Shown here piece by piece: positions 1 to 14,850 of a stretch of 37,790 bases of DNA. Each line of letters begins with the position of its first letter. Positions within the stretch are counted from its first letter, which is position 1. Below the pieces are notes generated by a model. It did not search any database. It was not told the origin of the DNA and saw nothing but the letters and a program-made list of their open reading frames with translations. Both the position numbers and the translations under genes were made by a program. The DNA lies in assembly GCA_031425655.1 (NCBI GenBank), contig JANPJS010000318.1, forward strand, positions 1 to 37,790, in the 5' to 3' direction. The DNA comes from Abditibacteriaceae bacterium (GTDB taxonomy: Bacteria > Armatimonadota > Abditibacteriia > Abditibacteriales > Abditibacteriaceae).

Positions 1-36
1 GAAATTTCCACGCGGCGCTTTTGGTTGTCTTATTTA

Positions 37-203
37 ACCCAAGTTGCCACCTATTTTGCCCCCGATTGAAATCGGGGTCTACCGTTACAAAACCGGCCTG
101 CGCCGGTTAAAAAGAGTCCGCGACGGGCGCCCTTTGGGCAGGGGACTTTGTAGCGACAGACCCCGAATTTATTCGGGGTGGAGGCATTGGCAGCAACTTG
201 GAT
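37..203. mobile_element. Degenerate MITE with IS982-like ends (ACCCAAGTTGCCAC ... GCAGCAACTTGGAT) enclosing a family-B palindromic repeat pair
   Basis: Imperfect 14-bp TIRs at 37-50 and 190-203 match the ends of the 2171-2345 element; internal inverted pair at about 59-177; AT-rich flanks but no clean target duplication. Confidence 0.55.
124..142 (+). repeat. 19-bp mini dispersed repeat CGGGCGCCCTTTGGGCAGG (copy 1 of 6)
   Basis: Matches copies at 17721, 17833, 24763, 28437 and 36723. Confidence 0.9.
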
Positions 204-249: not shown

Positions 250-408
250 CTACTTGGCTACGCCTTTGAACGGCTCCTTGTCGCTTTTCACGTCCATGAT
301 TTCGCCGGTTTTCGTATCGCGTTTGGCGCTGTTGCCGCTCGCGGTTTCAAATTGCGTGCGCTCTTTTACGGCGCCTTTACGACTCTTGTCTCCCGTATTC
401 GTTGCCAT
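250..408 (-). CDS. Small basic hypothetical protein (MATNTGDKSRKGAVKERTQF...KPFKGVAK type), C-terminally truncated by an 8-bp duplication
   Basis: ATG at 408 with AGGGG upstream; resembles a widespread family of about 60-aa proteins; the TAG stop is created by tandem TTGGCTAC x2 at 246-261. Confidence 0.7.
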   Translation of the reverse strand: MATNTGDKSRKGAVKERTQFETASGNSAKRDTKTGEIMDVKSDKEPFKGVAK

Positions 409-543
409 GATTGCACCCCTTTGAATTGCGACGCTCGGCGTCACATCGGCGCGGCAAATTGCAATTCATGTTCCCGATGCTTTGCCGAGGCTGGCGGCAG
501 AGGCGGTTCCGACTTGCCTTACAGCCAGATCGTGTGCTGAAAC

Positions 544-1179
544 TTACGGAGTCACTTTACCGGGAGATCGTGGTGGCGAGGCACGACCTGCCTTTTCCAA
601 CGAGGTGCCGAAGGGAATCAGGATGGGCGTGGAATGCACGGAGTCCATGCGACTGATGCGCCATGCCTCGCCAACACGGCGCAGAAAAAACGGCTGCACT
701 TCATTACGGTCTGCATAAATGAACTCAACCATGAGGCGCGTCTCATTCGGCGCGGAGTCCTGCTTCGTGCGCAGGTTAACGGCGACTCCTTTAACCGGAG
801 CCATCAAGCGTTTCAAATAGCCGATTAAATACGCATCGCCTTTTTCGGCGCGCGTGCGCTCCAGTTGGCCGCGCAATGGGTCGGTAAATTGTTCCAGATA
901 GGCGGTTAAGTTCCCGGCACGCGCGGCTGCGGTCGCCGCTTCTATGGAACTTATCATGGTGTTATCCAACGACGCCGGTGTTGCTGCGGTCACGCCACGC
1001 GTAGCCGCCGTCGGGGTGCGTGGCTGGCGTGGCCGGCGTGCCGAATAAAGTGCGCTGACCAGTGCCGCGCCGAGCATCGCCAGCCCAAGCCATAACTGTG
1101 GCGGCAATTTCGGCAAACGCTTAATTGGCCGGTGCGACTTGGGCTGTGGGCGTGGGACTGACGGCGGTTGGCGTGGCAT
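544..1179 (-). CDS. Membrane-anchored hypothetical protein (one TM helix, Pro/Thr/Ala linker, small alpha/beta domain, possibly NTF2-like)
   Basis: ORF 544..1233, likely start ATG 1179; TM segment LWLGLAMLGAALVSALY; overlaps the 3' end of the upstream hflK-like gene. Confidence 0.7.
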   Translation of the reverse strand: MPRQPPSVPRPQPKSHRPIKRLPKLPPQLWLGLAMLGAALVSALYSARRPRQPRTPTAATRGVTAATPASLDNTMISSIEAATAAARAGNLTAYLEQFTDPLRGQLERTRAEKGDAYLIGYLKRLMAPVKGVAVNLRTKQDSAPNETRLMVEFIYADRNEVQPFFLRRVGEAWRISRMDSVHSTPILIPFGTSLEKAGRASPPRSPGKVTP

Positions 1180-2134
1180 TAACGATTCCTGAAGCATCCG
1201 AAGTGGACGCGGGAGTGGGCGTGGCAATAGCATTCGCGGGGCGCGGCAGCAAGTTTAAATCTACCGGGTTGCGCTTTCCGGCACGATCCACGGAAATGAC
1301 TTTCAGGCGTGGCAGGATGTGCTCCATAGCCTCGAAATAAAGCCGGGTGTTGCTGACGCCGGGCGCGCGGCGATATGCGTTATAGGCCTGGCTAAAGCGC
1401 GCCGCATCGCCTTGGGCTTTGAGTATGGCGGCATCGCGGTAACCGATGGCTTCTTCGCGCAGTCTGGCGGCTTCTCCCTGCGCGGCGGGTAAAGTCGCGT
1501 TGGCGTAGGAACGCGCTTCCTGAATAAGGCGGTCGCGGTCTGCGCGTGCGCTGGCGACTTCGCGGAATGCGTCGGCGACCGCAAGCGGCGGGTTCACGCC
1601 GGCGATGTTGACGGCGGTAATTGTAAGGCCTAAGCCGTAGGCGTCGGACGCTTGCTGGGTGCGGAGGCGCACTGCATCCTGTGCTTCGAGCTTACCGATA
1701 GTCAACAAAGCATCCACCGGGCGCTCTGCCACCGTAGTCGCTACCGCCGCTTCCGCCGCTTGCTGCAAGACCCGTGTCGTGTCGGCTGCGGAGAATAAAT
1801 AGGCGCGCGGGTTGTCAATTGTGAACTGCACCAGCAATTCCACGTTCACCAGATTTTGATCGCCGGTGAAGCACTCGCCGTTCGCTGCCCCGCCGCGATT
1901 CAAGGTTTGATCGGCGGCTTCAAAGCCTATGTTGAGCCGCTTTTGTTCACGCACTTTGAGGCGATTGACTCGATCTACGCCCCACGGCAGCCCAATGTGC
2001 AAGCCCGGAGGCACTCGGTCGGCGACGACTTTGCCGAAGCGCCGCACCACCGCCTGTTCGTCCACTTGAACGATGTAGACCCCGGTTAAAAGCCACAGTC
2101 CGCCTAAGAGTCCCAGAATACGTTGTTTGGTCAT
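1121..2134 (-). CDS. hflK: HflK-like SPFH (band 7) membrane protein
   Basis: N-terminal TM, VVRRFGK...PGLH, FTGDQNLVNVE, VNPPLAVADAFREV, AQGDAARF, RLYFEAMEHIL motifs. Confidence 0.85.
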   Translation of the reverse strand: MTKQRILGLLGGLWLLTGVYIVQVDEQAVVRRFGKVVADRVPPGLHIGLPWGVDRVNRLKVREQKRLNIGFEAADQTLNRGGAANGECFTGDQNLVNVELLVQFTIDNPRAYLFSAADTTRVLQQAAEAAVATTVAERPVDALLTIGKLEAQDAVRLRTQQASDAYGLGLTITAVNIAGVNPPLAVADAFREVASARADRDRLIQEARSYANATLPAAQGEAARLREEAIGYRDAAILKAQGDAARFSQAYNAYRRAPGVSNTRLYFEAMEHILPRLKVISVDRAGKRNPVDLNLLPRPANAIATPTPASTSDASGIVNATPTAVSPTPTAQVAPAN

Positions 2135-2170
2135 AATGCTAATGCAGAAACGCGAAAATCAAATATTTTA

Positions 2171-2345
2171 ACCCGACTTGCTACCCATCACATCCGAAGT
2201 AGTGGAGTCGCATTCAGCCCCCACCCAACCTCCCCCGGAGAGGGAGGAGTAGATTCTTCAAGGCCCTTTGCTTTGAAAAAACGTAACTCCTCTCCCCTCC
2301 GGGGGAGGTTGGGTGGGGGCAAAGACGATAAGTAGCAACTTGGGT
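2171..2345. mobile_element. MITE with IS982-like ACCC termini and 7-bp target duplication TATTTTA, carrying a family-A palindromic pair
   Basis: TIRs ACCCGACTTGCTAC (2171-2184) and GTAGCAACTTGGGT (2332-2345); TATTTTA at 2164-2170 and 2346-2352; internal inverted arms 2217-2249 and 2287-2320. Confidence 0.8.
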
Positions 2346-2349
2346 TATT

Positions 2350-3246
2350 TTACGGTTTCCCATTGATGCGCCCGCTGGTCAGCAATCGCATCAAATCGGA
2401 GTCGGACGAGAGAATCACGGTTGTTTTTTCGTTCATGAATTTTTTGTAGGCATCCAGTGTGCGGGTCATTTTGTAAAAATTCGGATCGCGGTTATACGCG
2501 TCGGCATAGATGCGCATGGCCTGAGCATCGCCCCGTCCCTTGATCTTTTCAGCTTGCTCGTAACCGCGCGCTAAAATTTGGGTTTTCTCGCGGTCGGCGG
2601 CGGCGTGAATGCGCGTGGCCTGTTCCGCACCTTGAGCGCGATATTGGCGGGCGATGCGGTCGCGCTCGGAGCGCATCCGGGCAAAGACGCTTTCTTTGTT
2701 TTCTTCGGGCAGGTTGATGCGTCGCAGGCGCACGTCCTCCACTTCAATGCCGTATTGATCGCGCGCCGCTGCGGCACAACGCTGTTTCACGGAATCCATG
2801 ATCGCGCTGACTCGCACTTGCTTTGGGTTTGTCGCTACCAACTGGTCTAAATCGTGATTGCCCAGCGCGATGGAAATTTCCGATTTCACGATGTCTTGCA
2901 GGCGGCTCTCGGCTCCGGCGCGATCCACGACCGCCTGCAAAAACTTCTGCGGATCGTCCAGCCGCCAGATGACAAAGGAATCCACCACCAGATTTTTCCG
3001 GTCGCGCGTCAACAGCTCCGATGGCGAAGGAATGAACGATTGGCGCCGCACATCAAGCCGGATGCGGCTTTGCCACGGCCATTTGAGATGCAACCCGGCC
3101 TCGCGCGTTATCGCCACGGGCCGTCCGAATTGTGTCACGACGGCGGCTTCGCTTTCGTCCACGACGTAGAACGTTGAAACGATTATCAGCACTGCGACAA
3201 GAGCGGCAAACGCCTTGATTCGTGATTTCATGGTGTGCAGATTCAT
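2350..3246 (-). CDS. hflC: HflC-like SPFH membrane protein
   Basis: VVTQFGRP, LTRDRKNLVVD, DVRLRRINLP, VFARMRSERDRIA, GDAQAMRIYADAYNRDPNFY..TRTLDAY motifs; alternative start 3231. Confidence 0.9.
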   Translation of the reverse strand: MNLHTMKSRIKAFAALVAVLIIVSTFYVVDESEAAVVTQFGRPVAITREAGLHLKWPWQSRIRLDVRRQSFIPSPSELLTRDRKNLVVDSFVIWRLDDPQKFLQAVVDRAGAESRLQDIVKSEISIALGNHDLDQLVATNPKQVRVSAIMDSVKQRCAAAARDQYGIEVEDVRLRRINLPEENKESVFARMRSERDRIARQYRAQGAEQATRIHAAADREKTQILARGYEQAEKIKGRGDAQAMRIYADAYNRDPNFYKMTRTLDAYKKFMNEKTTVILSSDSDLMRLLTSGRINGKP

Positions 3247-3262
3247 TCGGCTTAAGTAATCG

Positions 3263-3405
3263 GGAGAACGATAAACAGGAAGACGGAAAGGGCGGGAAGG
3301 TGGGAAGAAGAAAACGAAGTCGTTTTCTTGCCTTTGTCTGCGAACATTTCCATTACTCCACAGATTGCTTTTCCGTCTTCCCGCTCTTTCCGTTTATCGT
3401 TCTCC
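3263..3405. repeat. Intergenic inverted repeat built from degenerate purine-rich short units
   Basis: GGAGAACGATAAAC (3263-3276) pairs with GTTTATCGTTCTCC (3392-3405); inner GGAAGACGGAAAG-like units mirrored by TTTCCGTCTTCC. Confidence 0.7.
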
Positions 3406-3430
3406 TTGTTAATTAGCTCAGTTGAGCCAT

Positions 3431-6400
3431 TTATTCTTCCTCCTCCGATGGTTGTTGTGGACGCGGCACAGCGGGCAAACCCGGCAGTTCCGGCAATGCG
3501 CCCTCGGAGAGCCACATTTGCCGCCGTCCTCCGGCGCGCGGATCCATAACGAATTTGTTCGGCCCGGCTAACGCTTGTTCCACCGTTTCAAGATACATCC
3601 GATTGGCGTTGACCTGTGGCCCGGAACGGTAGCCGGTGAGCATCTGTGTGAAGCGGCTGGCATCGCCGGACGAGCGGTGGGCGCGCTCGAAAGCGTAGCC
3701 TCCGGCCAGCGCCAAGTTTTGCGCGGCCTCGCCGTGTGCGAGCGGAATTGTCTCGTTGCGATAAGCTTGCGCTTGATTGATCAGTGAGGATTTTTCTTCT
3801 TCGGCGCTCGATACGTTCCGATAAGCCGGAACGACTTCCTGCGGCGGATGCACGTCTTGCAAGCGCGCCGAAAGCACTTCTATGCCGCTTCCATAGGAAT
3901 CGCAAGTGCTTTGCGTGGAGCGCGCAATGGCCGCTTCGAGCGCGCCGCGGCCCGTTGTCAGCAAGGCCTGCATGGATGTTTGGCCCGCTGCACGTCGCAA
4001 AGCGGCTTCGCCGGCTTGGTGCAGCACGCTTTCTGCGTCGCTCAGGCTAAATAAATACTGAGATGAGTTGCTGATGCGATATTGCAGCGTCAAATTGACT
4101 TCCACGAAATACTCATCGCCGGTCAGCAGCAGCGACTCGTCGGCCACGCGCTCCAAGTTGCCGCGATGCTCTGTGCTCCATTCCGACACCCCGACCGGCG
4201 GGGATGCAACAGTGCTTTTCGTCGCGAAGTTGACATTTTTTCGGGTGCGAAAACCAATTTCGGCGCGGCGCACGCCGGCCACGTTGACCTTCGTAACTTT
4301 GTCAATCGGCCACGGCGCGCGATAATGCAGGCCGGGGCCGATGTTCGCGGCGATTAATCTGCCGAATCGCTGCGCCACACCGACCTCGCCTTGCGCGATG
4401 CTATAAAACCCCGACATCAGCCAGCCCACGAAGACAACGCCGACAAGGGCGAGACAGATTCGTTGTCGGTTTTGCCGCGCCGTTTCGCGCCATTGGCGCC
4501 CATGTTCGGTGATGCGTTGCAACGGCAAACGCGCCGTCCAACGTGCGATTTTCTGCGGCAGCCAAGTGGTGCGCGGTGCCGCAACGGTATCGCCCGGTCG
4601 CCAGGGTTTGCCGTAAAGCAAGCGCAGCGAACTGGTGACGACTAAAAGCGAGGCGATTTGGTGCTCGACAGCGGCCAGAATCGGCGACAGGTCGCGGCTG
4701 CCGTCGCCGAAATAAGGATGGGCCGCTTGCAGGCGGAAGCCAAGCCAGGCTAAAGCTCCGCTCGCGCTCAAAATTACGCTCAGGCTATTGAGGCCAATGG
4801 CGAACCACAGAATGTTGCGACGAATGGTGGACAGGGCACGGCGGCTAATGACAATCGTTTCGGGCAGGCGTGCCAAATCGTCGGCGACGAAGACGACGCC
4901 TGCGGTTTCCACAGCGATGTCGGCTCCGCCATGACCCATCGCCACGCCGACATCGGCGGCGGCGAGCGCCGGCGCGTCGTTGATGCCGTCGCCGATCATG
5001 GCAACGCGATAACCCGCGGCCTGCAAAGCGCGCAGACGCGCCATTTTATCGGCGGGAAAAAGATGCGCGGACACTTCGGTAATCCCGATTTGACCTGCCA
5101 CCGCTTGCGCGGCTTTGGCGCTATCGCCGGTCAACATCAAAATGCGTTCGATGCCCAGCGCTTTCAGCGACGACACCACGCTCGCCGCTTCGGGCCGCAC
5201 GCGGTCAGTCACGGCAAGCAGGCCGATTATCTCCATTTTGCCAATGGGCAAAGTCGCGGCGGCGACAAATATGACAGTGTTGCCCTTTGCTTCAAGCGCC
5301 TCGGCGCGTTGCGATAGGTCGGGCGGCAGCGCGACGGCTTTGTCATGCAAAAGTTGGCGGTTGCCCGCTAAAAGCAGTTGCCCTGCCTGCGTCGCGGTCA
5401 TGCCCAAGCCCGGCTGATAAGTGGCGTCGTCAAGCGGCGGCAGCGTGCCGGTGTCGCCGTAAGCTTGCCGCACGGCGGCGCTGAGGGGATGAGCCGAGCC
5501 TTGCTCGGCTGTGGCCGCGAGGCGCAGCACTTCTTCCTGCGTGCGGCCTGCGGCGGCCACGATTTCGACGACTTCAGGACGGCCTTGCGTCAGCGTGCCG
5601 GTCTTATCGAAAATGACACAGTTGACCCGCGCGAGGGCTTCGAGAGGAGCGCCGCCGCGCATGAGGATTCCACGCCGCGCGCAGCGTCCCAACGCCGCCG
5701 CCATGCCGGTCGGCGTGGCTAAAATCAAGGCGCAGGGACACGCGATAATCAGCGTGGCCGCCATGCGCGTGAGAGCGACGGAAAGCGCCGCTCCTAAAAT
5801 CCAATAATAAACGGCAAAAGTCAGCGCACCTATGATAAGCACGATGGGCACGAAGTAACCGGCCCAACGATCCGCGAGGCGCTCGACGGGTGCTTTTCGC
5901 GCCTGCGCTTCGGCGACGAGGCGAATGATCTGCGCCAGCGTAGTGGCCTCGCCGACGGCCCTCGCTTCGACTTCGAGCAGCCCCATCGTATTGATGGTGC
6001 CGGTGAAAACTTCGTCGCCGGGTTGTTTGAGTAACGGCAACGACTCGCCGGTGAGCGCGGACTGATCCACAGCCGATTGCCCGGTTTGCACCACGCCATC
6101 TACGGGAATACGCTCGCCGGGGCGGATGATGACGCTATCGCCCACCACGATTTGCTCAATCGGCAGCGTGATTTCATGGCCATCGCGCCGCACGGTCGCT
6201 GTGTCGGGCGCGAGGCCGAGAAGAGCGGCAAGTGCGCCGCGCGTTTTTTCAACGACGTAACCTTCCAGCGCCGTGCCGATCAGCATGATGAGCACGACTT
6301 CGGCGGCAGCCGCGAATTGGCCGATGGCTAACGCGGCGAAAGCGGCAATGGTTACGGCAAGGTCGCCGCCCATTTTGCCTCTGGAAAGACGCGACAGGCT

Positions 6401-6643
6401 GTCCCAGAAAATGCCGTAGCCACCCGCTAATGTGACCAGCAGCGCGGCATCGAGTCCGAAGATTTTGGTGACCACGCCGCTCACGTAGAGCAGCAGCATC
6501 CCCGTGACCACGCCGATCATAGCCACGTCGCTCCAGGCTACGCCGCCTTCGGCTTCGTCATCTTCGTCGTGAATTTCGTCAATGTCGGGGTCTGACATCG
6601 GTTCTGTGTGTGGTTCCGGGTAGGGGCGGGAGCCGATGTCCAT
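3431..6643 (-). CDS. Heavy-metal P1B-type ATPase fused to a C-terminal HflK-like SPFH domain
   Basis: TGES, CPC (5732-5740), DKTGT, HP, TGD and GDGINDAP motifs, then an extra TM and HflK motifs (QRFGR..GPGLHY, LLTGDEYFVEV, DVHPPQEVVPAY, GDASRF, RMYLETVEQAL) in one uninterrupted 1070-aa frame. Confidence 0.92.
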   Translation of the reverse strand: MDIGSRPYPEPHTEPMSDPDIDEIHDEDDEAEGGVAWSDVAMIGVVTGMLLLYVSGVVTKIFGLDAALLVTLAGGYGIFWDSLSRLSRGKMGGDLAVTIAAFAALAIGQFAAAAEVVLIMLIGTALEGYVVEKTRGALAALLGLAPDTATVRRDGHEITLPIEQIVVGDSVIIRPGERIPVDGVVQTGQSAVDQSALTGESLPLLKQPGDEVFTGTINTMGLLEVEARAVGEATTLAQIIRLVAEAQARKAPVERLADRWAGYFVPIVLIIGALTFAVYYWILGAALSVALTRMAATLIIACPCALILATPTGMAAALGRCARRGILMRGGAPLEALARVNCVIFDKTGTLTQGRPEVVEIVAAAGRTQEEVLRLAATAEQGSAHPLSAAVRQAYGDTGTLPPLDDATYQPGLGMTATQAGQLLLAGNRQLLHDKAVALPPDLSQRAEALEAKGNTVIFVAAATLPIGKMEIIGLLAVTDRVRPEAASVVSSLKALGIERILMLTGDSAKAAQAVAGQIGITEVSAHLFPADKMARLRALQAAGYRVAMIGDGINDAPALAAADVGVAMGHGGADIAVETAGVVFVADDLARLPETIVISRRALSTIRRNILWFAIGLNSLSVILSASGALAWLGFRLQAAHPYFGDGSRDLSPILAAVEHQIASLLVVTSSLRLLYGKPWRPGDTVAAPRTTWLPQKIARWTARLPLQRITEHGRQWRETARQNRQRICLALVGVVFVGWLMSGFYSIAQGEVGVAQRFGRLIAANIGPGLHYRAPWPIDKVTKVNVAGVRRAEIGFRTRKNVNFATKSTVASPPVGVSEWSTEHRGNLERVADESLLLTGDEYFVEVNLTLQYRISNSSQYLFSLSDAESVLHQAGEAALRRAAGQTSMQALLTTGRGALEAAIARSTQSTCDSYGSGIEVLSARLQDVHPPQEVVPAYRNVSSAEEEKSSLINQAQAYRNETIPLAHGEAAQNLALAGGYAFERAHRSSGDASRFTQMLTGYRSGPQVNANRMYLETVEQALAGPNKFVMDPRAGGRRQMWLSEGALPELPGLPAVPRPQQPSEEEE

Positions 6644-6709
6644 GAAGGTAAGGTCGGAAAAATTGATGCGGCAGAGGTGTGATGAATTTACGCCGAAGCG
6701 ACGAAGCGG

Positions 6710-9598
6710 CTACGCACCATGAATCCACATCGGTGAAGACCAGGCCAGTTGACCATCGGCTTGCTCGATGCGGACATAATAATAGCTCATGCCCTGACAG
6801 CCTTCGACATCCGTCCATGACAAGTCCACTTGGGTGGTGTTCGGCATGGCAGTGTAGACAATTTTGTTGTTTTTAACGACGATAACGCGCGCTATCGGGC
6901 CGGTGCCGGTCACGCTAATCTGCAAAGACGGCAGCGTTTGGATGGTGAACTCATCGCCCATTATCTTGTTGCCGCAGCGCACGTCCAGCAGGATGTTGTC
7001 CGTGGCCGCGTAACAGTGACGCCGGCGCAAGGCATCCACGACGCCTTGAGGCGTCGGTGTCGAGGCGTAGGCCATGGTGTAAGAAATATGCGTCGAGCGG
7101 TGATCGGACGAGGATTCAAAGCCGAGCCGGTAACCCTTTGCCAGCGCGTTCCACACGTAGCCCGCCGGGTTATAACCGCCAATGGCATCGGCGGCAGTGG
7201 CGCTGCGCGGCGCGCCCTCGTATTCGTAGCTTTGACGGTCGCCTTGATAAATTTCCACGATTGGCTCGACTTCACGGTCGTTATCGCGCCAGTCTGTGCC
7301 GCCGACATACTGTCCAGAGGTATGGGCGGCGCAGATGCCGTCGAAGGCGCGCAGATATTTATAAAGCATCTTGGTGTCGTTGGGCGAAACTCCGTTGGCC
7401 TGATTGCCTTTGAGGCGTGGTAAGGGCCGGATGCCGCGTTCCGGGAAGATTATGTTGCGATGGCCGTCGGGAAAACTCACGCTGCGTTCGTAGGAAAAGA
7501 CCGGCGCGAACTGGCTTGGCACAGTAAAAGCGTCGGTGTGCTTTTGCACCAGCCACCAGGTGTATTCGCGGTCTCCTCCCGATGAGCCGGGAGCTGAGCC
7601 GCTATTGTGGTCGCCGTTGCCGATCCAGTCTAAAGTTGCGGCATCGAGGCCATAGCGCCACATATCAATCAGGCTGCCCTCGCTTTTGCCGTCGCCGGAG
7701 ATTTCCGTGTGACGATGAAACTCGCCACGGACAATCTGATAAACGTCGGGGCCGGCTCTAGCGCGGTAACTCCGCAAACGGCTCACATCGTTACGTTCAG
7801 CCAGAGTTTTGGCGTCCACATCGTGCATCGTTGCGGGGTCGGCAACCAATGCGGGAGCGACGGCGGGGCCAGACCCCGCCATCCCGGTAATCGGCGCGAT
7901 GTAGATTTGATTGCGCCACGGCGTGCTGTAAGTTTGGTTGCGCCCATCGCTGGTATGCACCAGATAAAGCGCGCCGCCCGGCCCGTTGGCGAATGCGGGG
8001 CGGGCGTCTAATGCGTTGTCGGAATTGGGCACCGTGACCACAGGCGCCCAGGAGCTGCCTTCATAGAACGTAACGACCGAGTGCCACGATGTGGAGACAG
8101 TTTCCTGCACATCGGAAATCGGACGGCGGCAGGTGAGAAACACCCGGCCTTTGTCGTCGGTGCCCAGGCGCGGAAACGCCGTTTGGGTGCCCGTGTTGAG
8201 AGTTGCTAAAGTCCCTGCGGTTTTTAAACGCTGCCCGTCGGCATAACAACGCACATTAATGGTGTGGCCCGAATAAAGCGGAATGCCGACAGCGGGGTCT
8301 CTATACAAGCGTCCATAATCCTTGCCCCACAGCGGCCCGGCTTCTTCCCAGGCGATCCACACCCGATTGGCCGCATCGCACACAACCGAAGCTCTGGCCT
8401 CAAATTTTGGTGAGTCGCTGACGTTGATGGCCGGGCCAAATTCTGCGCCGTCCAACCGGCGCAGCATGACATCGTAATCGCCCTTATCGTAGGTGTCCCA
8501 GACAGCCCAGACGCTGCCGTCGTTGCCGCACGCCAGTTGCGGGTCCCAATCGTTGGCGGAACTGGTGCTGATCGGCGTCGCGCCGTTCCAGTTTTCGGTG
8601 CCGCGCGCGACTGAACTTATCAGAATATCGGACGTGCCGTTGGCGAAGCTCTGCCAGGCCAGCCAGATGTTGCCGGAGGCATCGCGCGCCAGCGCGACGT
8701 GTAAGTCGGGGGAGGCGTCCTGCGTAATCTGAATGGGCGGGGAAAGCGCGCCGTTATTATAGCGGCGCGCATAAACGTCCCATTGGCCGCCAACCTTCTG
8801 CGACCACGCGACCCAGACCTCTCCATCTAAGCCTGTGGCCAACGCGGGACGGTAAACATCCTGTCCCGCCGGCGTGAGATCGGCCATATGCGACCACTGT
8901 CCCGCGCCGCCCTGAGCCGTCAGTCGCGCCAGACGAATCTGGTCGCCGTTGCCTTGCGGTCGCAAAAAGTCGAACGATTGCGGCTCCGTCAACATTGGAC
9001 GTAAAAAAGGCAAATTCGACTGGCCGTAGGTATAAGAAACGTAAGCTGTCCACAGTGTGCCGGTCGTGTCGGCGGCGGCAGTGGGAAAGTCGTCTTCCGT
9101 GTTGCCGGCAGGCAGGGTGAATTCCGAGAAAACACGCTCGGCGGAAGCCGCGCCGTTCAGCAGGAGAACAGGCTGTCCGAAGACCAGAGCGGCGGGCGCG
9201 AAACTGAAATTGCCTTGCGCGGTAGTAATCTGAATTTGCGTTTGAGAACTGGCCTTGAGCGTTATCAGAACGCCGTTGGTGTTCATCTTACGGGTGACGG
9301 GACTGATGCGCGTCGAGGCAACCCAACTCGTCGGACTGATCCATTTGTCGGTTGAGCGGAAATTCCAGCCCTGTGAACCGATGAAGGTGCCGTTAACGAT
9401 GCTGAACGAGCCGTCCCAGTTTGTGGGCACGGTATCTTTTTTCCCGAAAAGCACGCGCACCGTTATAGCCTGCGGCTCGACGCGCGTGCCGGCGTCCTGT
9501 CCCACCACCTGAGCGCCGCTGCGCTGCACCCACCACGCGCCGCTGGCCAACATGAAGCCGAGAGCCAAAAAAAGCGAGGCGAAACGAATTTTTTTCAT
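6710..9598 (-). CDS. Secreted protein: propeller-like repeats plus C-terminal PHP-type (DUF3604/CehA-McbA-like) metallohydrolase domain
   Basis: Signal peptide MKKIRFASLFLALGFMLASGA; repeated D-x-x-P-x-L-A..G-x-V-W-x-A-W blades; PHP-like motifs GEFHRHTE, GDH, YE, GHRN, AHT, VEIYQ, SSDH. Confidence 0.8.
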   Translation of the reverse strand: MKKIRFASLFLALGFMLASGAWWVQRSGAQVVGQDAGTRVEPQAITVRVLFGKKDTVPTNWDGSFSIVNGTFIGSQGWNFRSTDKWISPTSWVASTRISPVTRKMNTNGVLITLKASSQTQIQITTAQGNFSFAPAALVFGQPVLLLNGAASAERVFSEFTLPAGNTEDDFPTAAADTTGTLWTAYVSYTYGQSNLPFLRPMLTEPQSFDFLRPQGNGDQIRLARLTAQGGAGQWSHMADLTPAGQDVYRPALATGLDGEVWVAWSQKVGGQWDVYARRYNNGALSPPIQITQDASPDLHVALARDASGNIWLAWQSFANGTSDILISSVARGTENWNGATPISTSSANDWDPQLACGNDGSVWAVWDTYDKGDYDVMLRRLDGAEFGPAINVSDSPKFEARASVVCDAANRVWIAWEEAGPLWGKDYGRLYRDPAVGIPLYSGHTINVRCYADGQRLKTAGTLATLNTGTQTAFPRLGTDDKGRVFLTCRRPISDVQETVSTSWHSVVTFYEGSSWAPVVTVPNSDNALDARPAFANGPGGALYLVHTSDGRNQTYSTPWRNQIYIAPITGMAGSGPAVAPALVADPATMHDVDAKTLAERNDVSRLRSYRARAGPDVYQIVRGEFHRHTEISGDGKSEGSLIDMWRYGLDAATLDWIGNGDHNSGSAPGSSGGDREYTWWLVQKHTDAFTVPSQFAPVFSYERSVSFPDGHRNIIFPERGIRPLPRLKGNQANGVSPNDTKMLYKYLRAFDGICAAHTSGQYVGGTDWRDNDREVEPIVEIYQGDRQSYEYEGAPRSATAADAIGGYNPAGYVWNALAKGYRLGFESSSDHRSTHISYTMAYASTPTPQGVVDALRRRHCYAATDNILLDVRCGNKIMGDEFTIQTLPSLQISVTGTGPIARVIVVKNNKIVYTAMPNTTQVDLSWTDVEGCQGMSYYYVRIEQADGQLAWSSPMWIHGA

Positions 9599-9780: not shown

Positions 9781-12700
9781 GTGTTAAAAGCCACCTTTTC
9801 TGCCGGCAACGTATTGTGGGCCGTCCTCATCGGATGGGCGCTGTGGCTCACGGGCGGCGCGGTGAGCGCCGCCACACTCACAGTAGGCAATCCATCGGAT
9901 AGCGGCGTCGGATCGCTGCGTCAGGCCATTGCCGATGCGATGGAGGGCGACACTATCAATGTCCCGTCCGTCGGCACGATTATTCTGAGCAGTGGCGCGC
10001 TCGTCATTGATAAATCGCTAAGCATCGTGGGCACGGGCGCGGTGCCATTGACCATCAGCGGCAATAACGCCACGCGCATTTTTCAGGTTACGTCCGGCAC
10101 GGTCGTGCTGGCCGGTTTTACCCTGACGAGCGGTCTTGCCGAGGCGGGCAGTGCGGGAGGCGCGATTCGCAATTCCGCGACGCTGACCCTCAACAATTGC
10201 ACTGTTACCAACAGCAGAGCCGAAACAGGCGGCGGCATCTGTAATGACGCCGATGCTCTGCTGACTCTGAATAACAGTTTTGTAGATGGCAATGCGGCCA
10301 TCGGGGCGAACGGGGCAAACGGCGGCGGCATCGTCAACTCCGGCATTCTCACGGTCAATTCCAGCACGTTTTACCGCAATCACACCGTTAGCGGCGAGGG
10401 CGCCGGCATTTATCAGGCGCAGGGCGGCCTTCTCGTCAACAACAGCACGTTTTACGGCAACAGCGCCAGTTTTGCCTGTGCGGGACGGGGCGGCGCCCTC
10501 GCCGTCGAGGGCGGCACTGCCGAAGTAAACAACTCCACGATTGCCGGCAATTCGGCCAGCGCCTCGTTTGGCGGCGGCGGCATTTTTCAGGGTGCCGGCA
10601 CCCTGAGCCTCAACAACACGATCTTAGCCGGAAATAGCGCGCCCGATGGCGGCGCGGATTGCAGCGGCACCATCACGACGGGCGATTTTAACTTAGTGCA
10701 GGACACTTCGGGCTGCACGCTGGCCGGCACTCACAACGTGATAGGCCAAGACCCGCTGCTCGGACAAGTGCAAAACAACGGCGGCCTCACGTTCACGATG
10801 GCGCTTCTTTCCGGCAGCCCGGCTCTTGACTCTGGAAAAAGCGCCGGCACGCCGCCCACAGCGACCGACCAACGCGGCGCACCACGGCCTGTCAATTCGC
10901 CTGCCGTCATTTCCGGCGACGGCAGCGACATCGGTGCGTTCGAGGCCAATGATCCCGCGCAAACCGGCTTGTTACTGGTGAACACTCTCTCCGACCATGA
11001 CGATGGCGTCTGCGGCGCTACCGATTGCACCCTGCGCGAGGCGATCCATACGGCCAATAACCGCGCCGGCGACGACGCCATCGGTTTCATTGCGGGATTG
11101 GCCGGCACTATTGGTCTGGAGCAGGCGTTGCCCGCTTTGATGTCCAACATCGTCCTGACCGGCCCCGCCGCGCCGGGAATCATCGTGGAGCGCAGTCAAG
11201 TTCCCAATACGCCCGATTTTTCCATTTTCGTCGTCTCCGAGAGCGCAATAGTGACGATTTCCGCGTTGACTCTGCAACACGGGCGCAGCGAAGCCGGCGG
11301 CGGCATTGTCGTCAATGCCGCCGCCGGCTTGACGCTCAGCGGATGCACGCTTATAGACAACGAGGCAACGGCAGGCGATGGCGGCGGTGTTCTCAATCTC
11401 GGCGCGTTGGCACTTGTCAACTGCACCCTTGCGCGCAACATCGCTCCCAACGGCAAAGGCGGCGGCGTTGCCTCGAACGGCACACTCAGCCTCGCGCACT
11501 GCACTCTGACCGGGAATAGCGCCGGCTCCGGAGGTGGCCTCGACATCGCTCCGGCCACATCGGCCACCATCAACGGCAGCCTGTTCGCAGGCAACAGCGC
11601 GCCGTTGGCTGCGGATTGTCAGGGCGCCTTCACGACGGGCGACTATAACCTTGTTCAAGACCCTTCCGGTTGCGTGCTGTCGGGAGCCAATAATATCACC
11701 GGCCAAGACCCGCTGCTTGGCCCGTTGCAAGACAACGGCGGCCCAACCCCGACCTGCGCGTTACAGTCCGGTAGCCCGGCGCTGGATACCGGCGGCCAGG
11801 CCGGCGGCCTAAGCGCGCCCACCGACCAACGCGGCTTCGTGCGGCCCGCCGATAATCCATCGCTGCCCAACCCGCCCGGCGGCGATGGCAGCGATATTGG
11901 CGCGCTCGAAGCCGATGTGACGCAGGGCAACGGCGTTATCGTTGTGAACACCACCGATGACCTTGACGATGGCGCTTGCACTGTGCGGCATTGCTCACTG
12001 CGCGAAGCCATTAATGCCGCGAACGCTGCTCCCAATGCCGCGCTGCCGGACGAGATTCGCTTCGCTATTCCCGGCACTGGGCCGCGCGTCATCGCGCCGC
12101 TCACGGCGTTTCCGACCATTAGCGAAGCGGTGATTCTGGACGGCACGACCCAAGCGGGTTATGCGGGTCTGCCCATTATCGAAATCAGAGGAACTTCCGC
12201 CGGCGCGGGCGTTGGCGGGCTGACTATCAACGCCGCAGGCTGCCGGGTGAAAGGCTTATCCATCACGCGCTTCGCGGCCAATGGCATCACGCTTTTAGCG
12301 GGCCAAAACGTCGTTGAAAACTGCTGGATCGGTATTTTCGCCGGCTCCACTTCCGGCGGCGCGGCGGGCAACGCCGGCAGCGGCATTTTCATTGACAACG
12401 TGCCGAGCAACACCATCGGCAGCGTAACCGCCGGCCTCGGCAACGTCATTTCCGCCAATAATGGCGATGGCATCCTGTTGCGCGGCAGCAGTGCCGGCAA
12501 TAACCTGGTGATCGGCAATTCTGTTGGCTTGGCTGTCAATGGCACGCTGGCGCTGGGCAACGGCGGCAACGGCATCGGGCTGGATGGAGCGACGCAGAAC
12601 ACTATCGGCGGTCAAACCGGCGGCGAGGGCAATGTTATCGTGGGAAATCGCGGCAACGGCATCTTTTTGCAAGGCGGCGCAACCGGCAATGTTATAAAAG

Positions 12701-14850
12701 GCAACAAAATCGGTGTTGCCCCGAACGGTGCGGCGCTGGGTAATATTGACGACGGCGTGCTCTTGGAAGGCGCATCGGCCAATATTATCGGCGATGCGGC
12801 GAGCGGCGCGGGCAACGTCATTGCCGGCAACGGGAACCACGGCGTTCAGATTACGAATGGCGACGGCAATACGATTCGCGGCAACGCGATTTACTCCAAT
12901 ACGCTGCTCGGTATAGAACTCGGCACCGATGGCGTCACGATCAACGACGCGCTTGACGCCGATGCCGGCCCGAATCAAGCGCAAAATTACCCGGTTATTA
13001 CGGACGTGACGACAACAAACGACCAGACGACGATTGGCGGCACTTTCAACAGCCAGCCAAACGCGACGTATATTCTGGATTTCTATCAAGGGCTGGTTCC
13101 CGATCCCAGCGGCAACGGCGAAGGCGACGTGTTCTTGCAAGATGCCGGTGGAGCCGGTTCGCCGGTTGTCACCACTGACGCGAATGGCTTCGCGGCTTTT
13201 AGCTTTACCATTGCCGGAAATCTCGGCGATCAATACGTCAGTGCGACGGCTACTGATGCCGCCGGCAACACCAGCGAATTCTCCGGGGTTATAAATTCTC
13301 CATCCGTCACAGTCACCGATGTCACGGTCACCGAGGGCAATGCCGGCGTCGTAAGGGCTGATTTTGTCGTGAGTTTGTCTGTCGCCGGTAGTCGAACAAT
13401 ATCGGTGAACTACGCCTCCGTCAATGGCACCGCCTTAGCGCCGGGCGATTATACCGCGACCACAGGCACCTTAAGCTTCGCGCCGGGCCAGACCAGCAAA
13501 ACAGTCAGCGTCTCGGTGAACGGTAATTACGTGCCGGAAAGCGATGAAACTCTGTTCCTCAACTTGAGCGATGCGGTCAATGCAACGCTGGGCGACGCGC
13601 AAGGTATAGGCACTATCGCCAACGACGATTTCGACACGACGCCTCCCAGCGTGAACTTCACGACTTCGGCGACTACGCCGGCGGGCACCACGCCACTGAG
13701 CAACGCCACGCTTTACAACGCGATTCCAACGATTACCGGCGTCGCGGCGGATGCGGGCAGCGGAGTATCGAAAGTCGAACTGCGTTTGTATCGTGCGTCC
13801 GCCGTGGCGGGGGTTTACGAAGAGTGGAACGGCACTGTTTGGACTGCGAGCGCGCGGTTGAGCACGGTTTTGAGTCCGGCGGCGGGCGGTGCCAATGTGA
13901 GCTTTAGCAAGAGCGGCGGTTGGCCCAGCGGCAGCAATCTGTCGAGCGGCACTTACTATCTGGTGGCTTACGCCTATGACCGGGCCGGCAAGTATGGCTT
14001 TTTCGCCACCATTTTCAAAATAGTGAGTGACACGACGCCTCCCAGCGTGAGTTTCACGACTTCAGCGACGACTCCTGTCGGCACCACACCACTGAAGAAT
14101 GCCACGCTTTACGAGGCGATTCCAACGATTACCGGCGTGGCGGCGGATGCGGGCAGCGGAGTATCGAAAGTCGAACTGCGTTTATATCGCGCGTCCGCCG
14201 TGGCGGGGGTTTACGAAGAGTGGAACGGCACGGTTTGGACTGCGAGCGCGCGGTTGAGCACGGTTCTGAGTCCGACGGCGGGCGGTGCCAATGTGAGCTT
14301 TAGCAAGAGCGGCGGTTGGCCCAGCGGCAGCAATCTATCGAGCGGCACTTACTATCTGGTGGCTTACGCCTATGATCGGGTCGGTAAATCAGCTGCCGTG
14401 AATACGTTTTTCAAAGTGGGCAATGACACCACAGCGCCCAGTGTAAGTTTCACGACTCCGACCACCAATCCGTCCGGCACGACGCCGCTTGAGAACAGCA
14501 CGGTTGGCGCTATCCCCGACATTACCGGCGTGGCAGCGGATGGCGGGAGCGGCATCGCGCGCGTGGATTTACGTTTGTATCGCGCGACAAGCACAGCCGG
14601 GGTTTACGAGGAATGGAACGGCACGACTTGGACAGCTTCGGCGCGATTAAGCACAACGATGAGTCCGGCAAGCGGCGGCGCCAGTGTAAGTTGGAATCGC
14701 AGCGGCGTCTGGCCGACGGGCAGCAACCTGGCGAACGGCACTTACTATCTCGTCGCTTACGCTTATGATCGCGCCGGTAAATCAGCCTACATCGCTACTA
14801 TTTTCAAGGTCAGTTCTTCGAATAGTGCCACCCGTAGCGCTCCCGGTTAA
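9781..14850 (+). CDS. Large secreted/surface protein: choice-of-anchor-Q and CSLREA repeats, right-handed beta-helix, Calx-beta domain, three Ig-like repeats
   Basis: GSLRQAI, CTLREAI and CSLREAI; LGPLQDNGGPTPT..SPALD..DQRG..DIGA; NQAQNYPVI..GNTSEFS; Calx-beta (VTEGNAG..DYTATTGTLSFAPGQTSKT..ESDETL); DTTPPSV repeats. Confidence 0.85.
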   Translation: MLKATFSAGNVLWAVLIGWALWLTGGAVSAATLTVGNPSDSGVGSLRQAIADAMEGDTINVPSVGTIILSSGALVIDKSLSIVGTGAVPLTISGNNATRIFQVTSGTVVLAGFTLTSGLAEAGSAGGAIRNSATLTLNNCTVTNSRAETGGGICNDADALLTLNNSFVDGNAAIGANGANGGGIVNSGILTVNSSTFYRNHTVSGEGAGIYQAQGGLLVNNSTFYGNSASFACAGRGGALAVEGGTAEVNNSTIAGNSASASFGGGGIFQGAGTLSLNNTILAGNSAPDGGADCSGTITTGDFNLVQDTSGCTLAGTHNVIGQDPLLGQVQNNGGLTFTMALLSGSPALDSGKSAGTPPTATDQRGAPRPVNSPAVISGDGSDIGAFEANDPAQTGLLLVNTLSDHDDGVCGATDCTLREAIHTANNRAGDDAIGFIAGLAGTIGLEQALPALMSNIVLTGPAAPGIIVERSQVPNTPDFSIFVVSESAIVTISALTLQHGRSEAGGGIVVNAAAGLTLSGCTLIDNEATAGDGGGVLNLGALALVNCTLARNIAPNGKGGGVASNGTLSLAHCTLTGNSAGSGGGLDIAPATSATINGSLFAGNSAPLAADCQGAFTTGDYNLVQDPSGCVLSGANNITGQDPLLGPLQDNGGPTPTCALQSGSPALDTGGQAGGLSAPTDQRGFVRPADNPSLPNPPGGDGSDIGALEADVTQGNGVIVVNTTDDLDDGACTVRHCSLREAINAANAAPNAALPDEIRFAIPGTGPRVIAPLTAFPTISEAVILDGTTQAGYAGLPIIEIRGTSAGAGVGGLTINAAGCRVKGLSITRFAANGITLLAGQNVVENCWIGIFAGSTSGGAAGNAGSGIFIDNVPSNTIGSVTAGLGNVISANNGDGILLRGSSAGNNLVIGNSVGLAVNGTLALGNGGNGIGLDGATQNTIGGQTGGEGNVIVGNRGNGIFLQGGATGNVIKGNKIGVAPNGAALGNIDDGVLLEGASANIIGDAASGAGNVIAGNGNHGVQITNGDGNTIRGNAIYSNTLLGIELGTDGVTINDALDADAGPNQAQNYPVITDVTTTNDQTTIGGTFNSQPNATYILDFYQGLVPDPSGNGEGDVFLQDAGGAGSPVVTTDANGFAAFSFTIAGNLGDQYVSATATDAAGNTSEFSGVINSPSVTVTDVTVTEGNAGVVRADFVVSLSVAGSRTISVNYASVNGTALAPGDYTATTGTLSFAPGQTSKTVSVSVNGNYVPESDETLFLNLSDAVNATLGDAQGIGTIANDDFDTTPPSVNFTTSATTPAGTTPLSNATLYNAIPTITGVAADAGSGVSKVELRLYRASAVAGVYEEWNGTVWTASARLSTVLSPAAGGANVSFSKSGGWPSGSNLSSGTYYLVAYAYDRAGKYGFFATIFKIVSDTTPPSVSFTTSATTPVGTTPLKNATLYEAIPTITGVAADAGSGVSKVELRLYRASAVAGVYEEWNGTVWTASARLSTVLSPTAGGANVSFSKSGGWPSGSNLSSGTYYLVAYAYDRVGKSAAVNTFFKVGNDTTAPSVSFTTPTTNPSGTTPLENSTVGAIPDITGVAADGGSGIARVDLRLYRATSTAGVYEEWNGTTWTASARLSTTMSPASGGASVSWNRSGVWPTGSNLANGTYYLVAYAYDRAGKSAYIATIFKVSSSNSATRSAPG
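13633..14811 (+). repeat. Three tandem 396-bp (132-aa) intragenic Ig-like domain repeats
   Basis: Units start at 13633, 14029 and 14425; units 1 and 2 are near-identical in DNA, unit 3 is diverged. Confidence 0.9.

What the first reader, a model, noticed from the sequence alone, without database searches (positions are those of the whole stretch)
544..9598. Candidate undescribed system: secreted PHP metallohydrolase + P1B-ATPase-HflK fusion + HflC + HflK + membrane-anchored unknown
Seen: five co-oriented genes, with gaps that are short or filled by repeats, encoding three SPFH domains (two K-type, one C-type), and no ftsH or hflX in the window. Established: E. coli HflK and HflC alternate in a large membrane cage around FtsH, and some P1B-ATPases supply metal to exported enzymes rather than detoxify. 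Inference: this is a repurposed HflK/C cage into which a metal pump is built through its fused HflK subunit, forming a membrane microdomain that could hand metal to the co-encoded secreted multinuclear PHP enzyme. The 544-1179 protein could be an adaptor or lid.
Basis: partly seen in the sequence, partly recalled or inferred. Interest (0 to 1): 0.88.

Follow-up and report, generated by a model that had tools for sequence, protein, structure and literature searches.

The report
Caged metal pump serving secreted enzymes
A metal pump welded to a membrane-cage protein, two more cage subunits and a small anchored adaptor occur almost only in bacteria that also carry one large family of exported metal-dependent enzymes, which suggests a dedicated station for loading metal into those enzymes outside the cytoplasm.

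Summary
All five genes are real. This scan has already noted the P1B-ATPase::HflK fusion with HflC, HflK and a small gene in other genomes, and an unfused SPFH-trio-plus-pump locus is in print (Pseudomonas hmtA). The tie to the enzyme is new here. In 903 genomes from three phyla, 44 of 49 genomes with the fusion carry the beta-propeller/PHP enzyme family, against 8 of 854 without it. The pump is single copy, the enzyme up to about ten copies, with one copy within 1.5 kb of the pump in 19 of 49. Trios fused to other transporters lack the small gene (0 of 12 loci) and mostly the enzyme. A structure prediction docks the small NTF2-like protein on the enzyme's C-terminal Ig-like domain (score 0.78, best control 0.00; mark reached by 116 of 157 solved and 2 of 215 mismatched pairs). 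The pump forms its own clade (CPC, N-x20-HQ) without an N-terminal metal-binding domain. The enzymes have Sec-type, not Tat, leaders. The SPFH trio is paralogous to ordinary hflKC. Best reading (0.6): a periplasmic metal-loading station serving many client enzymes. Metal, transport direction, cage assembly and co-transcription are untested.

The parts
6710..9598 (-). Exported enzyme, 962 aa: Sec-type N-terminal hydrophobic leader, small beta-sandwich, beta-propeller (about 165-575), PHP-like multinuclear metallohydrolase domain (about 617-865), C-terminal Ig-like domain (about 866-960); the proposed client
   Evidence: NF038032 E 1e-13, below cut-off; model pLDDT 79.7; propeller Z up to 36.6, rmsd 3.3, 352 aligned
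7004..7750 (-). Catalytic domain with candidate metal ligands H628, H630, D663, H664, E704, H713, H759, E782, D832, H833, H837
   Evidence: each is the modal residue at frequency 1.00 in 120 homologues; all but D663 and H837 are invariant in the 23-row alignment with distant subfamilies
6719..7003 (-). C-terminal Ig-like domain of the enzyme; predicted docking site of the small protein (residues 888-932)
3431..6643 (-). P1B-type metal ATPase (about 1-680) fused through a cytoplasmic linker and one further transmembrane helix (729-747) to an HflK-type SPFH/coiled-coil subunit (about 748-1040)
5732..5740 (-). TM4 CPC metal motif (DKTGT phosphorylation motif at 5594-5608)
   Evidence: CPC in 112 of 120 homologues, the other 8 partial or unmatched; invariant in 49 of 49
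4658..4663 (-). TM6 His-Gln motif (N619 ... H661-Q662), the clade signature
   Evidence: HQ in 120 of 120; N-x20-HQ spacing in 110, x41-42 in 9, unmatched in 1
4166..4183 (-). (E)WxxxH motif inside a ~17-residue insert of the fused HflK SPFH domain, on the periplasmic side
   Evidence: 120 of 120 homologues and 40 of 40 fused loci; 0 of 35 free trio HflK, 0 of 15 two-gene HflK
2350..3246 (-). HflC-type SPFH protein of the trio clade
   Evidence: TIGR01932 204 bits; trees
1121..2134 (-). Free HflK-type SPFH protein of the trio
   Evidence: TIGR01933 218 bits
544..1179 (-). Single-TM protein with an NTF2-like periplasmic domain and a C-terminal PxLIP[FY]GT motif; proposed adaptor (start may be the TTG at 1116). 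Predicted binding strands at 769-795 and 592-627
   Evidence: DUF4878 weak in 3 of 12; pLDDT 78.2; NTF2-like, best Z 10.1, rmsd 3.6, 112 aligned, no standout
2217..2320 (.). Intergenic inverted repeat; a genome-wide dispersed element, not specific to the system
3253..3415 (.). Intergenic inverted repeat; a genome-wide dispersed element, not specific to the system

Best explanation
A dedicated periplasmic metal-loading (maturation) station for a family of exported beta-propeller/PHP hydrolases. (1) The enzymes cross the inner membrane unfolded through Sec, so they must take up their metal cluster outside the cytoplasm (leader type shown; consequence inferred). (2) A P1B ATPase of its own clade, without a cytoplasmic metal-binding domain, pumps a divalent metal from cytoplasm to periplasm (clade and motifs shown; direction inferred from the general P1B mechanism; metal guess Mn 0.4, Zn 0.3, Fe 0.2, other 0.1). 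(3) Its fused HflK subunit co-assembles with the free HflK and HflC into an HflK/C-type periplasmic cage, which builds the pump into the cage; the EWxxxH insert may relay metal or hold the pump (fusion and insert shown; assembly inferred from E. coli HflK/C). (4) The membrane-anchored NTF2-like protein catches the enzyme by its C-terminal Ig-like domain through beta-strand addition and holds it at the pump (predicted, not shown). One station serves all enzyme copies of a genome, which explains the tight co-occurrence with only partial gene linkage.
For: Co-occurrence, same genomes searched with both queries. Own phylum: both 24, fusion only 4, enzyme only 6, neither 267 of 301. Acidobacteriota: 16/0/1/284. 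Planctomycetota: 4/1/1/295, and the fusion-only genome G839 has an enzyme gene cut by the contig end beside the pump (L134). The pattern holds inside families: in G000's family 1 of 26 other genomes has either, the same genome G046; both occur in 9 families of the phylum. Linkage: enzyme within 1.5 kb of the pump in 19 of 49 genomes, within 20 kb in 29. In 9 of 76 metagenomic enzyme loci an HQ-type pump follows downstream, always co-oriented. Specificity control: trios fused to CDF or ArsP, or with unfused HN/HE-type pumps, had no small gene in 0 of 12 loci and no enzyme match in 6 of 7 genomes (G722, G704, G328, G344, G043, G167; G620 weak at E 2e-52). Predicted complex of enzyme 160-962 with the small protein: score 0.78, best of 3 controls 0.00, runs agree in at least 96% of contacts, partner pLDDT at least 86; mark reached by 116 of 157 solved and 2 of 215 mismatched pairs. 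The interface uses the small protein's conserved KGxA strand and PxLIP[FY]GT tail (modal frequency 0.57 against 0.48 elsewhere), and no solved homologue of the enzyme was found by sequence apart from one weak propeller hit. Leaders: 103 of 104 hydrophobic, 0 of 104 with a Tat consensus; pump N-termini: 0 of 102 with CxxC. G000 has separate Cu+-type and P1B-4-type pumps for detoxification.
Against: No transport, metal or expression data. Exceptions: G593 has at least 7 enzyme copies but no trio HflC, small gene or HQ pump was found; G297 (92% complete), G074 (88%) and G797 likewise; G123 and G246 have weak enzyme matches and no trio HflC; G137 and G164 (about 90% complete) have the pump but no enzyme match. 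64 of 76 metagenomic enzyme loci show no operon part within the DNA held. On the enzyme side the predicted interface is not more conserved than the rest of the domain (0.56 against 0.69). Kin are not independent (15 of the own-phylum positives are one genus), so the Fisher p-values overstate. The related Pseudomonas pump HmtA is described as an importer induced by zinc limitation (PMC4542158 passages). Co-occurrence cannot separate dependence from a shared mobile cassette or niche.
Confidence: 0.6

Rival explanations
1. An SPFH-scaffolded metal efflux or homeostasis platform (effluxosome-like). The enzyme and its anchor protein travel with it only as cargo of one mobile cassette or because the hosts share a niche, and the enzyme needs no metal from the pump.
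For: The same K-C-K trio is fused to CDF and ArsP transporters and sits by ZntA-like and P1B-4 pumps, all export-type families. Distribution is patchy (0 of 3 congeners). Enzyme-only genomes exist (G593, G297, G074, G797). Scaffolded P1B efflux platforms are known (PMC9374683 passages).
Against: Most enzyme copies are unlinked and divergent (22-54% identity to the window's) yet stay almost confined to pump-bearing genomes (44 of 52 enzyme-positive genomes). The pump has no N-terminal metal-binding domain. G000 has other efflux pumps. The small gene stays in the pump operon while its product is predicted to bind the enzyme.
Confidence: 0.15
2. A metal-scavenging importer like HmtA. The tethered hydrolase breaks a metal-binding ligand or polymer in the periplasm, and the pump takes the freed metal in through the cage.
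For: HmtA is called an atypical importer, and its cluster with three HflK/C-type genes rises under zinc depletion (PMC4542158, PMC11761036 passages). An adaptor holding the enzyme at the pump fits this reading too. HN-type pumps of such trios lie near the HQ clade, though without support.
Against: P1B pumps act as exporters by the general mechanism (PMC13460109 passages). No uptake genes recurred among the 54 neighbours scanned; enzyme copies sat instead by sulfatases and glycoside hydrolases in several loci, which suits catabolic enzymes.
Confidence: 0.13
3. Ordinary HflK/C regulating FtsH; the fusion merely shields the pump from, or feeds it to, the protease.
For: All three SPFH domains pass the HflK/HflC equivalog cut-offs and are G000's only HflK/C-type genes; G000 has ftsH.
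Against: 270 of 301 phylum genomes have no HflK match. 9 of 9 Acidobacteriota/Planctomycetota fusion genomes checked carry a separate two-gene hflK-hflC. Two-gene HflC is its own clade (support 99), and placing the window's HflC in it is disfavoured (p-AU 0.032). This reading does not explain the enzyme link.
Confidence: 0.07

Closest known systems
Pseudomonas aeruginosa hmtA cluster PA2434-PA2439 (PaFlo5-7 plus the P1B ATPase HmtA)
   Same: Three HflK/HflC-type genes together with a P1B ATPase; patchy distribution; separate from housekeeping hflKC (PMC4542158, PMC11761036, PMC13086221, passages read).
   Different: The pump is not fused there. A stand-in locus with that gene order (L117) has CPC+HN rather than CPC+HQ and a different membrane domain fused to HflK. 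No NTF2-like small gene or enzyme was found in such loci.
E. coli HflK/HflC cage around FtsH (PDB 7VHP, 7WI3, 9CZ2)
   Same: SPFH domains with a periplasmic coiled coil; the fused domain matches E. coli HflK at E 3e-62.
   Different: Two unlike HflK subunits, one carrying a pump and an EWxxxH insert; separate clade; not in an hflX-hflK-hflC operon.
Mycobacterial CtpC with PacL1 (metal efflux platform; CtpC also proposed to metallate secreted proteins)
   Same: CPC in TM4 and a His in TM6 (the review gives N-X18-H-N-X-S/T for CtpC, PMC13460109 passage); a small membrane-anchored partner; a scaffolded pump.
   Different: HQ rather than HN, with x20 spacing. The small partner has a folded NTF2-like domain predicted to bind the enzyme, not a cytoplasmic Glu/Ala chaperone. 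The CtpC platform forms without flotillin (PMC9374683). The Mn/secreted-protein paper was seen only as cited in PMC9374683.
Biosynthetic P1B pumps such as FixI/CcoI/CopA2 that supply copper to cytochrome oxidase (recalled, from no call)
   Same: A pump that delivers metal to an extracytoplasmic client instead of detoxifying.
   Different: Not a Cu+-type motif set (no YN/MxxS; separate clade); the client is a hydrolase family; an SPFH cage is built in.
CehA/McbA-type and DUF3604 PHP-like metallohydrolases
   Same: HxH ... His/Asp-rich catalytic domain followed by an Ig-like C-terminal domain.
   Different: Below the family cut-off, extra beta-propeller, DH instead of DxH in the last motif, substrate unknown.

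Membership tests
P1B-type ATPase | A, P and N domains with DKTGT and GDGxND; Cys-containing TM4 motif | tested here: met
P1B-1 (Cu+, CopA/FixI) | CPC with TM5 YN and TM6 MxxS (motif set recalled) | tested here: not met
   HQ in 120 of 120; outside the YN/M clade
P1B-2 (ZntA) and P1B-4 | TM5 K with TM6 D, or SPC with HEG (motif sets partly recalled; SPC per PMC13460109) | tested here: not met
P1B-6 / CtpC-like | SCA in TM4 (FezB) or N-X18-H-N-X-S/T between TM5 and TM6 (bioRxiv 2020.01.10.902569, PMC13460109) | tested here: not met
   CPC and N-x20-H-Q-x-[SAG]; a near variant, and no FezB or CtpC sequence was in the tree
P1B subclass by function | Transported metal and direction | not testable with these tools
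   needs transport assays
HflK/HflC (SPFH3) | Profile match above the TIGR01933/TIGR01932 cut-offs; N-terminal TM helix plus SPFH domain | tested here: met
Canonical FtsH-modulating HflK/C | Two-gene hflK-hflC operon and orthology to it | tested here: not met
   K(fused)-C-K layout; separate clade
Canonical FtsH-modulating HflK/C | FtsH-contact residues R141, E142, R185 of E. coli HflK (PMC13220708) | tested here: inconclusive
   E142 is not kept even in 15 of 15 two-gene HflKs, so the test cannot discriminate
Canonical FtsH-modulating HflK/C | Assembly into a cage and binding to FtsH | not testable with these tools
   too large for the complex tool; needs pull-down or cryo-EM
hmtA-type cluster | SPFH trio adjacent to a P1B ATPase | tested here: met
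   (HflC in 38 of 39 fusion loci, free HflK in 34 of 39)
hmtA-type cluster | Orthology to HmtA and Zur-type zinc-starvation control | not tested
   HmtA sequence not obtained; no regulator-site search made
PHP superfamily | HxH plus further conserved His/Asp/Glu ligands | tested here: met
   the last motif is DH, not the recalled DxH
PHP superfamily | Distorted (beta/alpha)7 barrel matching solved PHP structures | tested here: inconclusive
   whole-protein fold searches were filled by the propeller; the domain was not folded alone
CehA/McbA family (NF038032) | Score above the curated cut-off of 80 bits | tested here: not met
   51 bits; 5 of 12 homologues match weakly
NTF2-like / DUF4878 | NTF2-like fold | tested here: met
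   (many tied rows at Z 8-10; fold only, no specific family)

The most novel reading that the evidence does not exclude
A new class of metalloenzyme-maturation machine: an SPFH cage with a built-in ATP-driven pump forms a closed periplasmic chamber, into which an NTF2-like adaptor recruits Sec-exported apo-enzymes by a shared C-terminal Ig-like tag. A weakly binding metal (Mn or Fe) is then loaded away from competing zinc and copper. The CDF-, ArsP- and HmtA-type trios would be the same device with other pumps and other clients.
Probability: 0.3. Interest if true: 0.93.

Novelty: new variant of a known kind. Interest (0 to 1): 0.82.

Why it matters
Bacterial SPFH cages have one structurally defined client, FtsH, and how exported enzymes get the right metal in the periplasm is largely open. 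Here a natural fusion fixes the client transporter, phylogenetic profiling names a downstream enzyme family (4448 hits among 8000 candidates; no functional name in the listed hits), and a predicted adaptor-enzyme interface gives residues to mutate. Both questions become testable with five genes. It also predicts that this enzyme family will be inactive when expressed alone, which may be why it has no assigned function, and it offers a reading for the unexplained Pseudomonas hmtA cluster.

Tried and rejected
The genome-contig scan with the whole fusion was swamped by ordinary P1B pumps: 3 of 80 loci were fusions. The metagenome scan with the single small protein found nothing, and the small-protein alignment had no searchable stretch. 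The intergenic inverted repeats were rejected as system features. Promoter and terminator scans were at chance level (4 against 3.4; 14 against 14.8). No RNA holder was listed, so co-transcription is untested. The FtsH-contact residue test was inconclusive. Fold searches of the enzyme showed only the propeller; sequence search of solved structures gave one weak propeller hit. Literature: searches found no paper on an ATPase-HflK fusion or on a link between this enzyme family and a pump; subscription papers are mostly outside the library and no supplements were read. The Padilla-Benavides 2013, Smith 2014 and Lewinson 2009 papers were not held and are cited only through papers that quote them. 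Scan look-ups for the enzyme link showed nothing. The sulfatase/glycoside-hydrolase neighbourhood of unlinked enzyme copies has no baseline and is kept as a lead only. Only one complex could be modelled, so adaptor-cage and adaptor-pump contacts were not tried.
Full report
Observation. The window holds five minus-strand genes in the order enzyme (9598-6710), ATPase::HflK (6643-3431), HflC (3246-2350), HflK (2134-1121) and small gene (to 544). Family scans confirm a heavy-metal P-type ATPase with a C-terminal HflK domain above cut-off, an HflC and an HflK. The enzyme has no Pfam hit and a below-cut-off CehA/McbA match; the small protein has no hit. The repeats in two gaps are genome-wide elements. 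The genome (5.98 Mb, 97% complete) has ten Band_7 matches, of which only these three are HflK/C-like by tblastn, and one ftsH on another contig. Names among the homologues point to Armatimonadota.

The fusion is a conserved family. Searching with the HflK part among proteins of 588-1873 aa gave 598 hits among 7999 candidates. In 39 fusion loci examined (3, 17, 19) HflC was present in 38, the free HflK in 34 and the small gene in 32; several misses are contig ends, and in four loci (L101, L109-L111) the operon is split. Earlier notes of this scan reported this four-gene unit in at least seven other genomes; I re-tested that here.

The pump is its own clade. It has CPC in 112 of 120 homologues, TM6 HQ in 120 of 120 and N-x20-HQ in 110. 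Sixteen fused pumps form one branch (support 97, quick tree) apart from Cu+-type, Zn-type and P1B-4-type pumps; the deeper link to HN-type pumps is unsupported. None of 102 full-length members has an N-terminal CxxC. G000 has a separate Cu+-type and a separate SPC/HEGS pump. The nearest described motif is CtpC's His-Asn in TM6 (PMC13460109, passages); CtpC has been argued to move manganese or zinc (PMC9374683, passages), so the metal cannot be read from the motif.

The SPFH trio is not the housekeeping hflKC. 270 of 301 phylum genomes have no HflK match at E 1e-20. Eight Acidobacteriota genomes and one planctomycete with the fusion, all 9 checked, also carry a two-gene hflK-hflC. Two-gene HflC proteins, including one from an hflX-hflK-hflC operon, form a branch with support 99, and forcing the window's HflC into it gives p-AU 0.032. 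The same K-C-K layout occurs with HflK fused to CDF or ArsP transporters or to an unnamed membrane domain, as earlier scan notes said, and unfused in the Pseudomonas hmtA cluster, which rises under zinc depletion (PMC4542158 and PMC11761036, passages; PMC13086221, passages, reports only mild phenotypes). The pump-fused HflK carries an insert with (E)WxxxH in 120 of 120 homologues and 40 of 40 loci; it is absent from 35 free trio HflKs and 15 two-gene HflKs and loosely matched in 8 of 12 other fused HflKs. It lies next to the positions where E. coli HflK contacts FtsH (PMC13220708, passages), but conservation of those residues was uninformative.

The enzyme. The model (pLDDT 79.7) shows a leader, a beta-sandwich, a beta-propeller, an alpha/beta catalytic domain and an Ig-like C-terminal domain. 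Eleven His/Asp/Glu positions are at frequency 1.00 in 120 homologues. Feature neighbours are DUF3604 clusters. The PHP fold itself was not confirmed structurally. 103 of 104 full-length homologues have a hydrophobic leader and 0 of 104 a Tat consensus. The family is large (4448 hits among 8000 candidates) and often multicopy (up to 11 matches, some partial, in one genome).

Co-occurrence, the main new result. The same genome samples were searched with the fused HflK domain and with the enzyme's catalytic region. Own phylum (enzyme E 1e-40): both 24, fusion only 4, enzyme only 6, neither 267. Acidobacteriota (E 1e-60): 16, 0, 1, 284. Planctomycetota (E 1e-60): 4, 1, 1, 295. Pooled, 44 of 49 fusion genomes against 8 of 854 others. 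Fusions were called from top-scoring matches in frames of about 980 aa or more; five own-phylum calls rest on shorter frames (G229 checked in L096; G216, G240, G146 and G224 not fetched). The tool scored at most seven candidates per genome, so misses are possible, and kin are not independent. The pattern nevertheless repeats within families (1 of 26 in G000's family for both queries, the same genome). Follow-up of exceptions: G191 has the small gene at a contig end; G208 is 74% complete; G593, G297, G074 and G797 showed no trio HflC, small gene or HQ pump; G216 and G240 are under 70% complete, while G137 and G164 are about 90% complete and lack an enzyme match. Genomes whose trio carries another transporter lacked the enzyme in 6 of 7 cases (G620 matched at E 2e-52), and 0 of 12 such loci had the small gene. 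An enzyme copy lies within 1.5 kb of the pump in 19 of 49 genomes and within 20 kb in 29; 18 have none on the contig. Seen from the enzyme side, 12 of 76 metagenomic loci had an operon part within 8 kb (9 with the HQ pump, always downstream and co-oriented; 3 with the small gene only), and 3 of the 16 with at least 5 kb on both sides. So this is one pump per genome with many enzymes, not a fixed five-gene operon.

The small protein. It has one transmembrane helix, an NTF2-like domain and a conserved PxLIP[FY]GT tail. In several loci it has left the operon's end and sits beside the enzyme gene (L034, L118, L220). I used the one complex job on enzyme 160-962 plus the small protein's soluble domain: score 0.78, best of three controls 0.00, runs agreeing in at least 96% of contacts, partner pLDDT at least 86; that mark was reached by 116 of 157 solved complexes and 2 of 215 mismatched pairs, counts that hold only roughly with my own alignments. 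The model pairs the small protein's KGVAV strand with strand 925-931 of the enzyme's Ig-like domain and packs the conserved tail on 911-919. The small protein's side is somewhat more conserved than the rest of it (0.57 against 0.48); the enzyme's side is not (0.56 against 0.69), as backbone strand pairing would allow. This supports binding; it does not show it.

Mechanism. Shown: fusion, motifs, clade, paralogy to hflKC, co-occurrence, partial linkage and leader type. Predicted: adaptor-enzyme binding. Inferred: export direction, cage assembly, metal hand-over and the metal's identity. The simplest reading that covers all of it is a periplasmic metal-loading station: the enzyme leaves by Sec as apo-protein, the adaptor holds it by its C-terminal domain, and the pump built into the cage releases metal beside it (0.6). 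A walled space would matter most for a weakly binding metal such as Mn or Fe, which zinc and copper outcompete in the open periplasm (established metal-affinity order, recalled). Rivals are an efflux platform with hitch-hiking cargo (0.15), an HmtA-like scavenging importer (0.13) and an ordinary FtsH cage (0.07). Unlinked enzyme copies lay by sulfatases in L176, L178, L179 and L185 and by glycoside hydrolases in L175 and L176, among 54 neighbours scanned from 19 loci, a hint of glycan-related substrates without a baseline.

Novelty. The parts are known and the trio-plus-pump layout is in print without a mechanism. I found no paper on the fusion, the adaptor or the enzyme link (searches; PMC2636767, passages, has no occurrence of 'ATPase'; PMC11672702, held part searched, gave nothing relevant; bioRxiv 2020.01.10.902569, passages, was used for P1B-6 motifs), and the scan's notes returned nothing for the enzyme. 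I rate it a new variant of a known kind, interest 0.82, with a 0.3 chance that it is a new class of caged metallation machine.

Noticed in passing
L128:16285-18228, and L129, L130, L132: A bona fide DUF3604 gene (Pfam E 1e-219 for L128) lies divergently next to the enzyme gene upstream of the pump in four related Acidobacteriota loci; it may be a second client type.
   Followed up: partly
L115:7367-17269 (Aquibium plasmid): CDF-fused HflK, HflC and HflK followed by a ZntA-like pump, a PCu(A)C copper chaperone and an SCO protein: an SPFH trio beside periplasmic metal-delivery genes.
   Followed up: partly
L137 and L170: Two CDF-fused HflK domains nest inside the ATPase-fused HflK clade and keep the WxxxH insert, suggesting a swap of the transporter; these genomes gave no enzyme match.
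   Followed up: partly
L139:1171-3183 (G074): An enzyme-positive genome without the fusion has an unfused pump with CPC and HELSS in TM6, a possible stand-in for the HQ pump.
   Followed up: no
window 4730-4800: G000 and close relatives have a ~21-residue insertion between TM5 and TM6 of the pump (N-x41/42-HQ in 9 of 120 homologues).
   Followed up: no
L172:6201-14598; G593 C15: Three enzyme paralogues in tandem in some Acidobacteriota.
   Followed up: no
L151: In G387 an ordinary two-gene hflK-hflC, an enzyme copy and the pump operon lie within about 20 kb; second HflK hits at similar distance occur in G465, G494 and G548.
   Followed up: partly
window 9781-14850: Divergent 1689-aa surface protein with CSLREA, choice-of-anchor Q, beta-helix, Calx-beta and Ig-like repeats; no link to the system was tested.
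   Followed up: no
window 252-410: A short minus-strand ORF of about 52 codons follows the small gene; not analysed.
   Followed up: no
window 35-200, 2217-2320, 3253-3415: Three dispersed palindromic repeats (REP/MITE-like) with 77, 79 and 14 hits in the genome; many copies lie near contig ends.
   Followed up: partly
L029: Frameshifts in both the pump and the enzyme gene, probably long-read assembly errors; a 3-kb gap separates the fusion from hflC.
   Followed up: no
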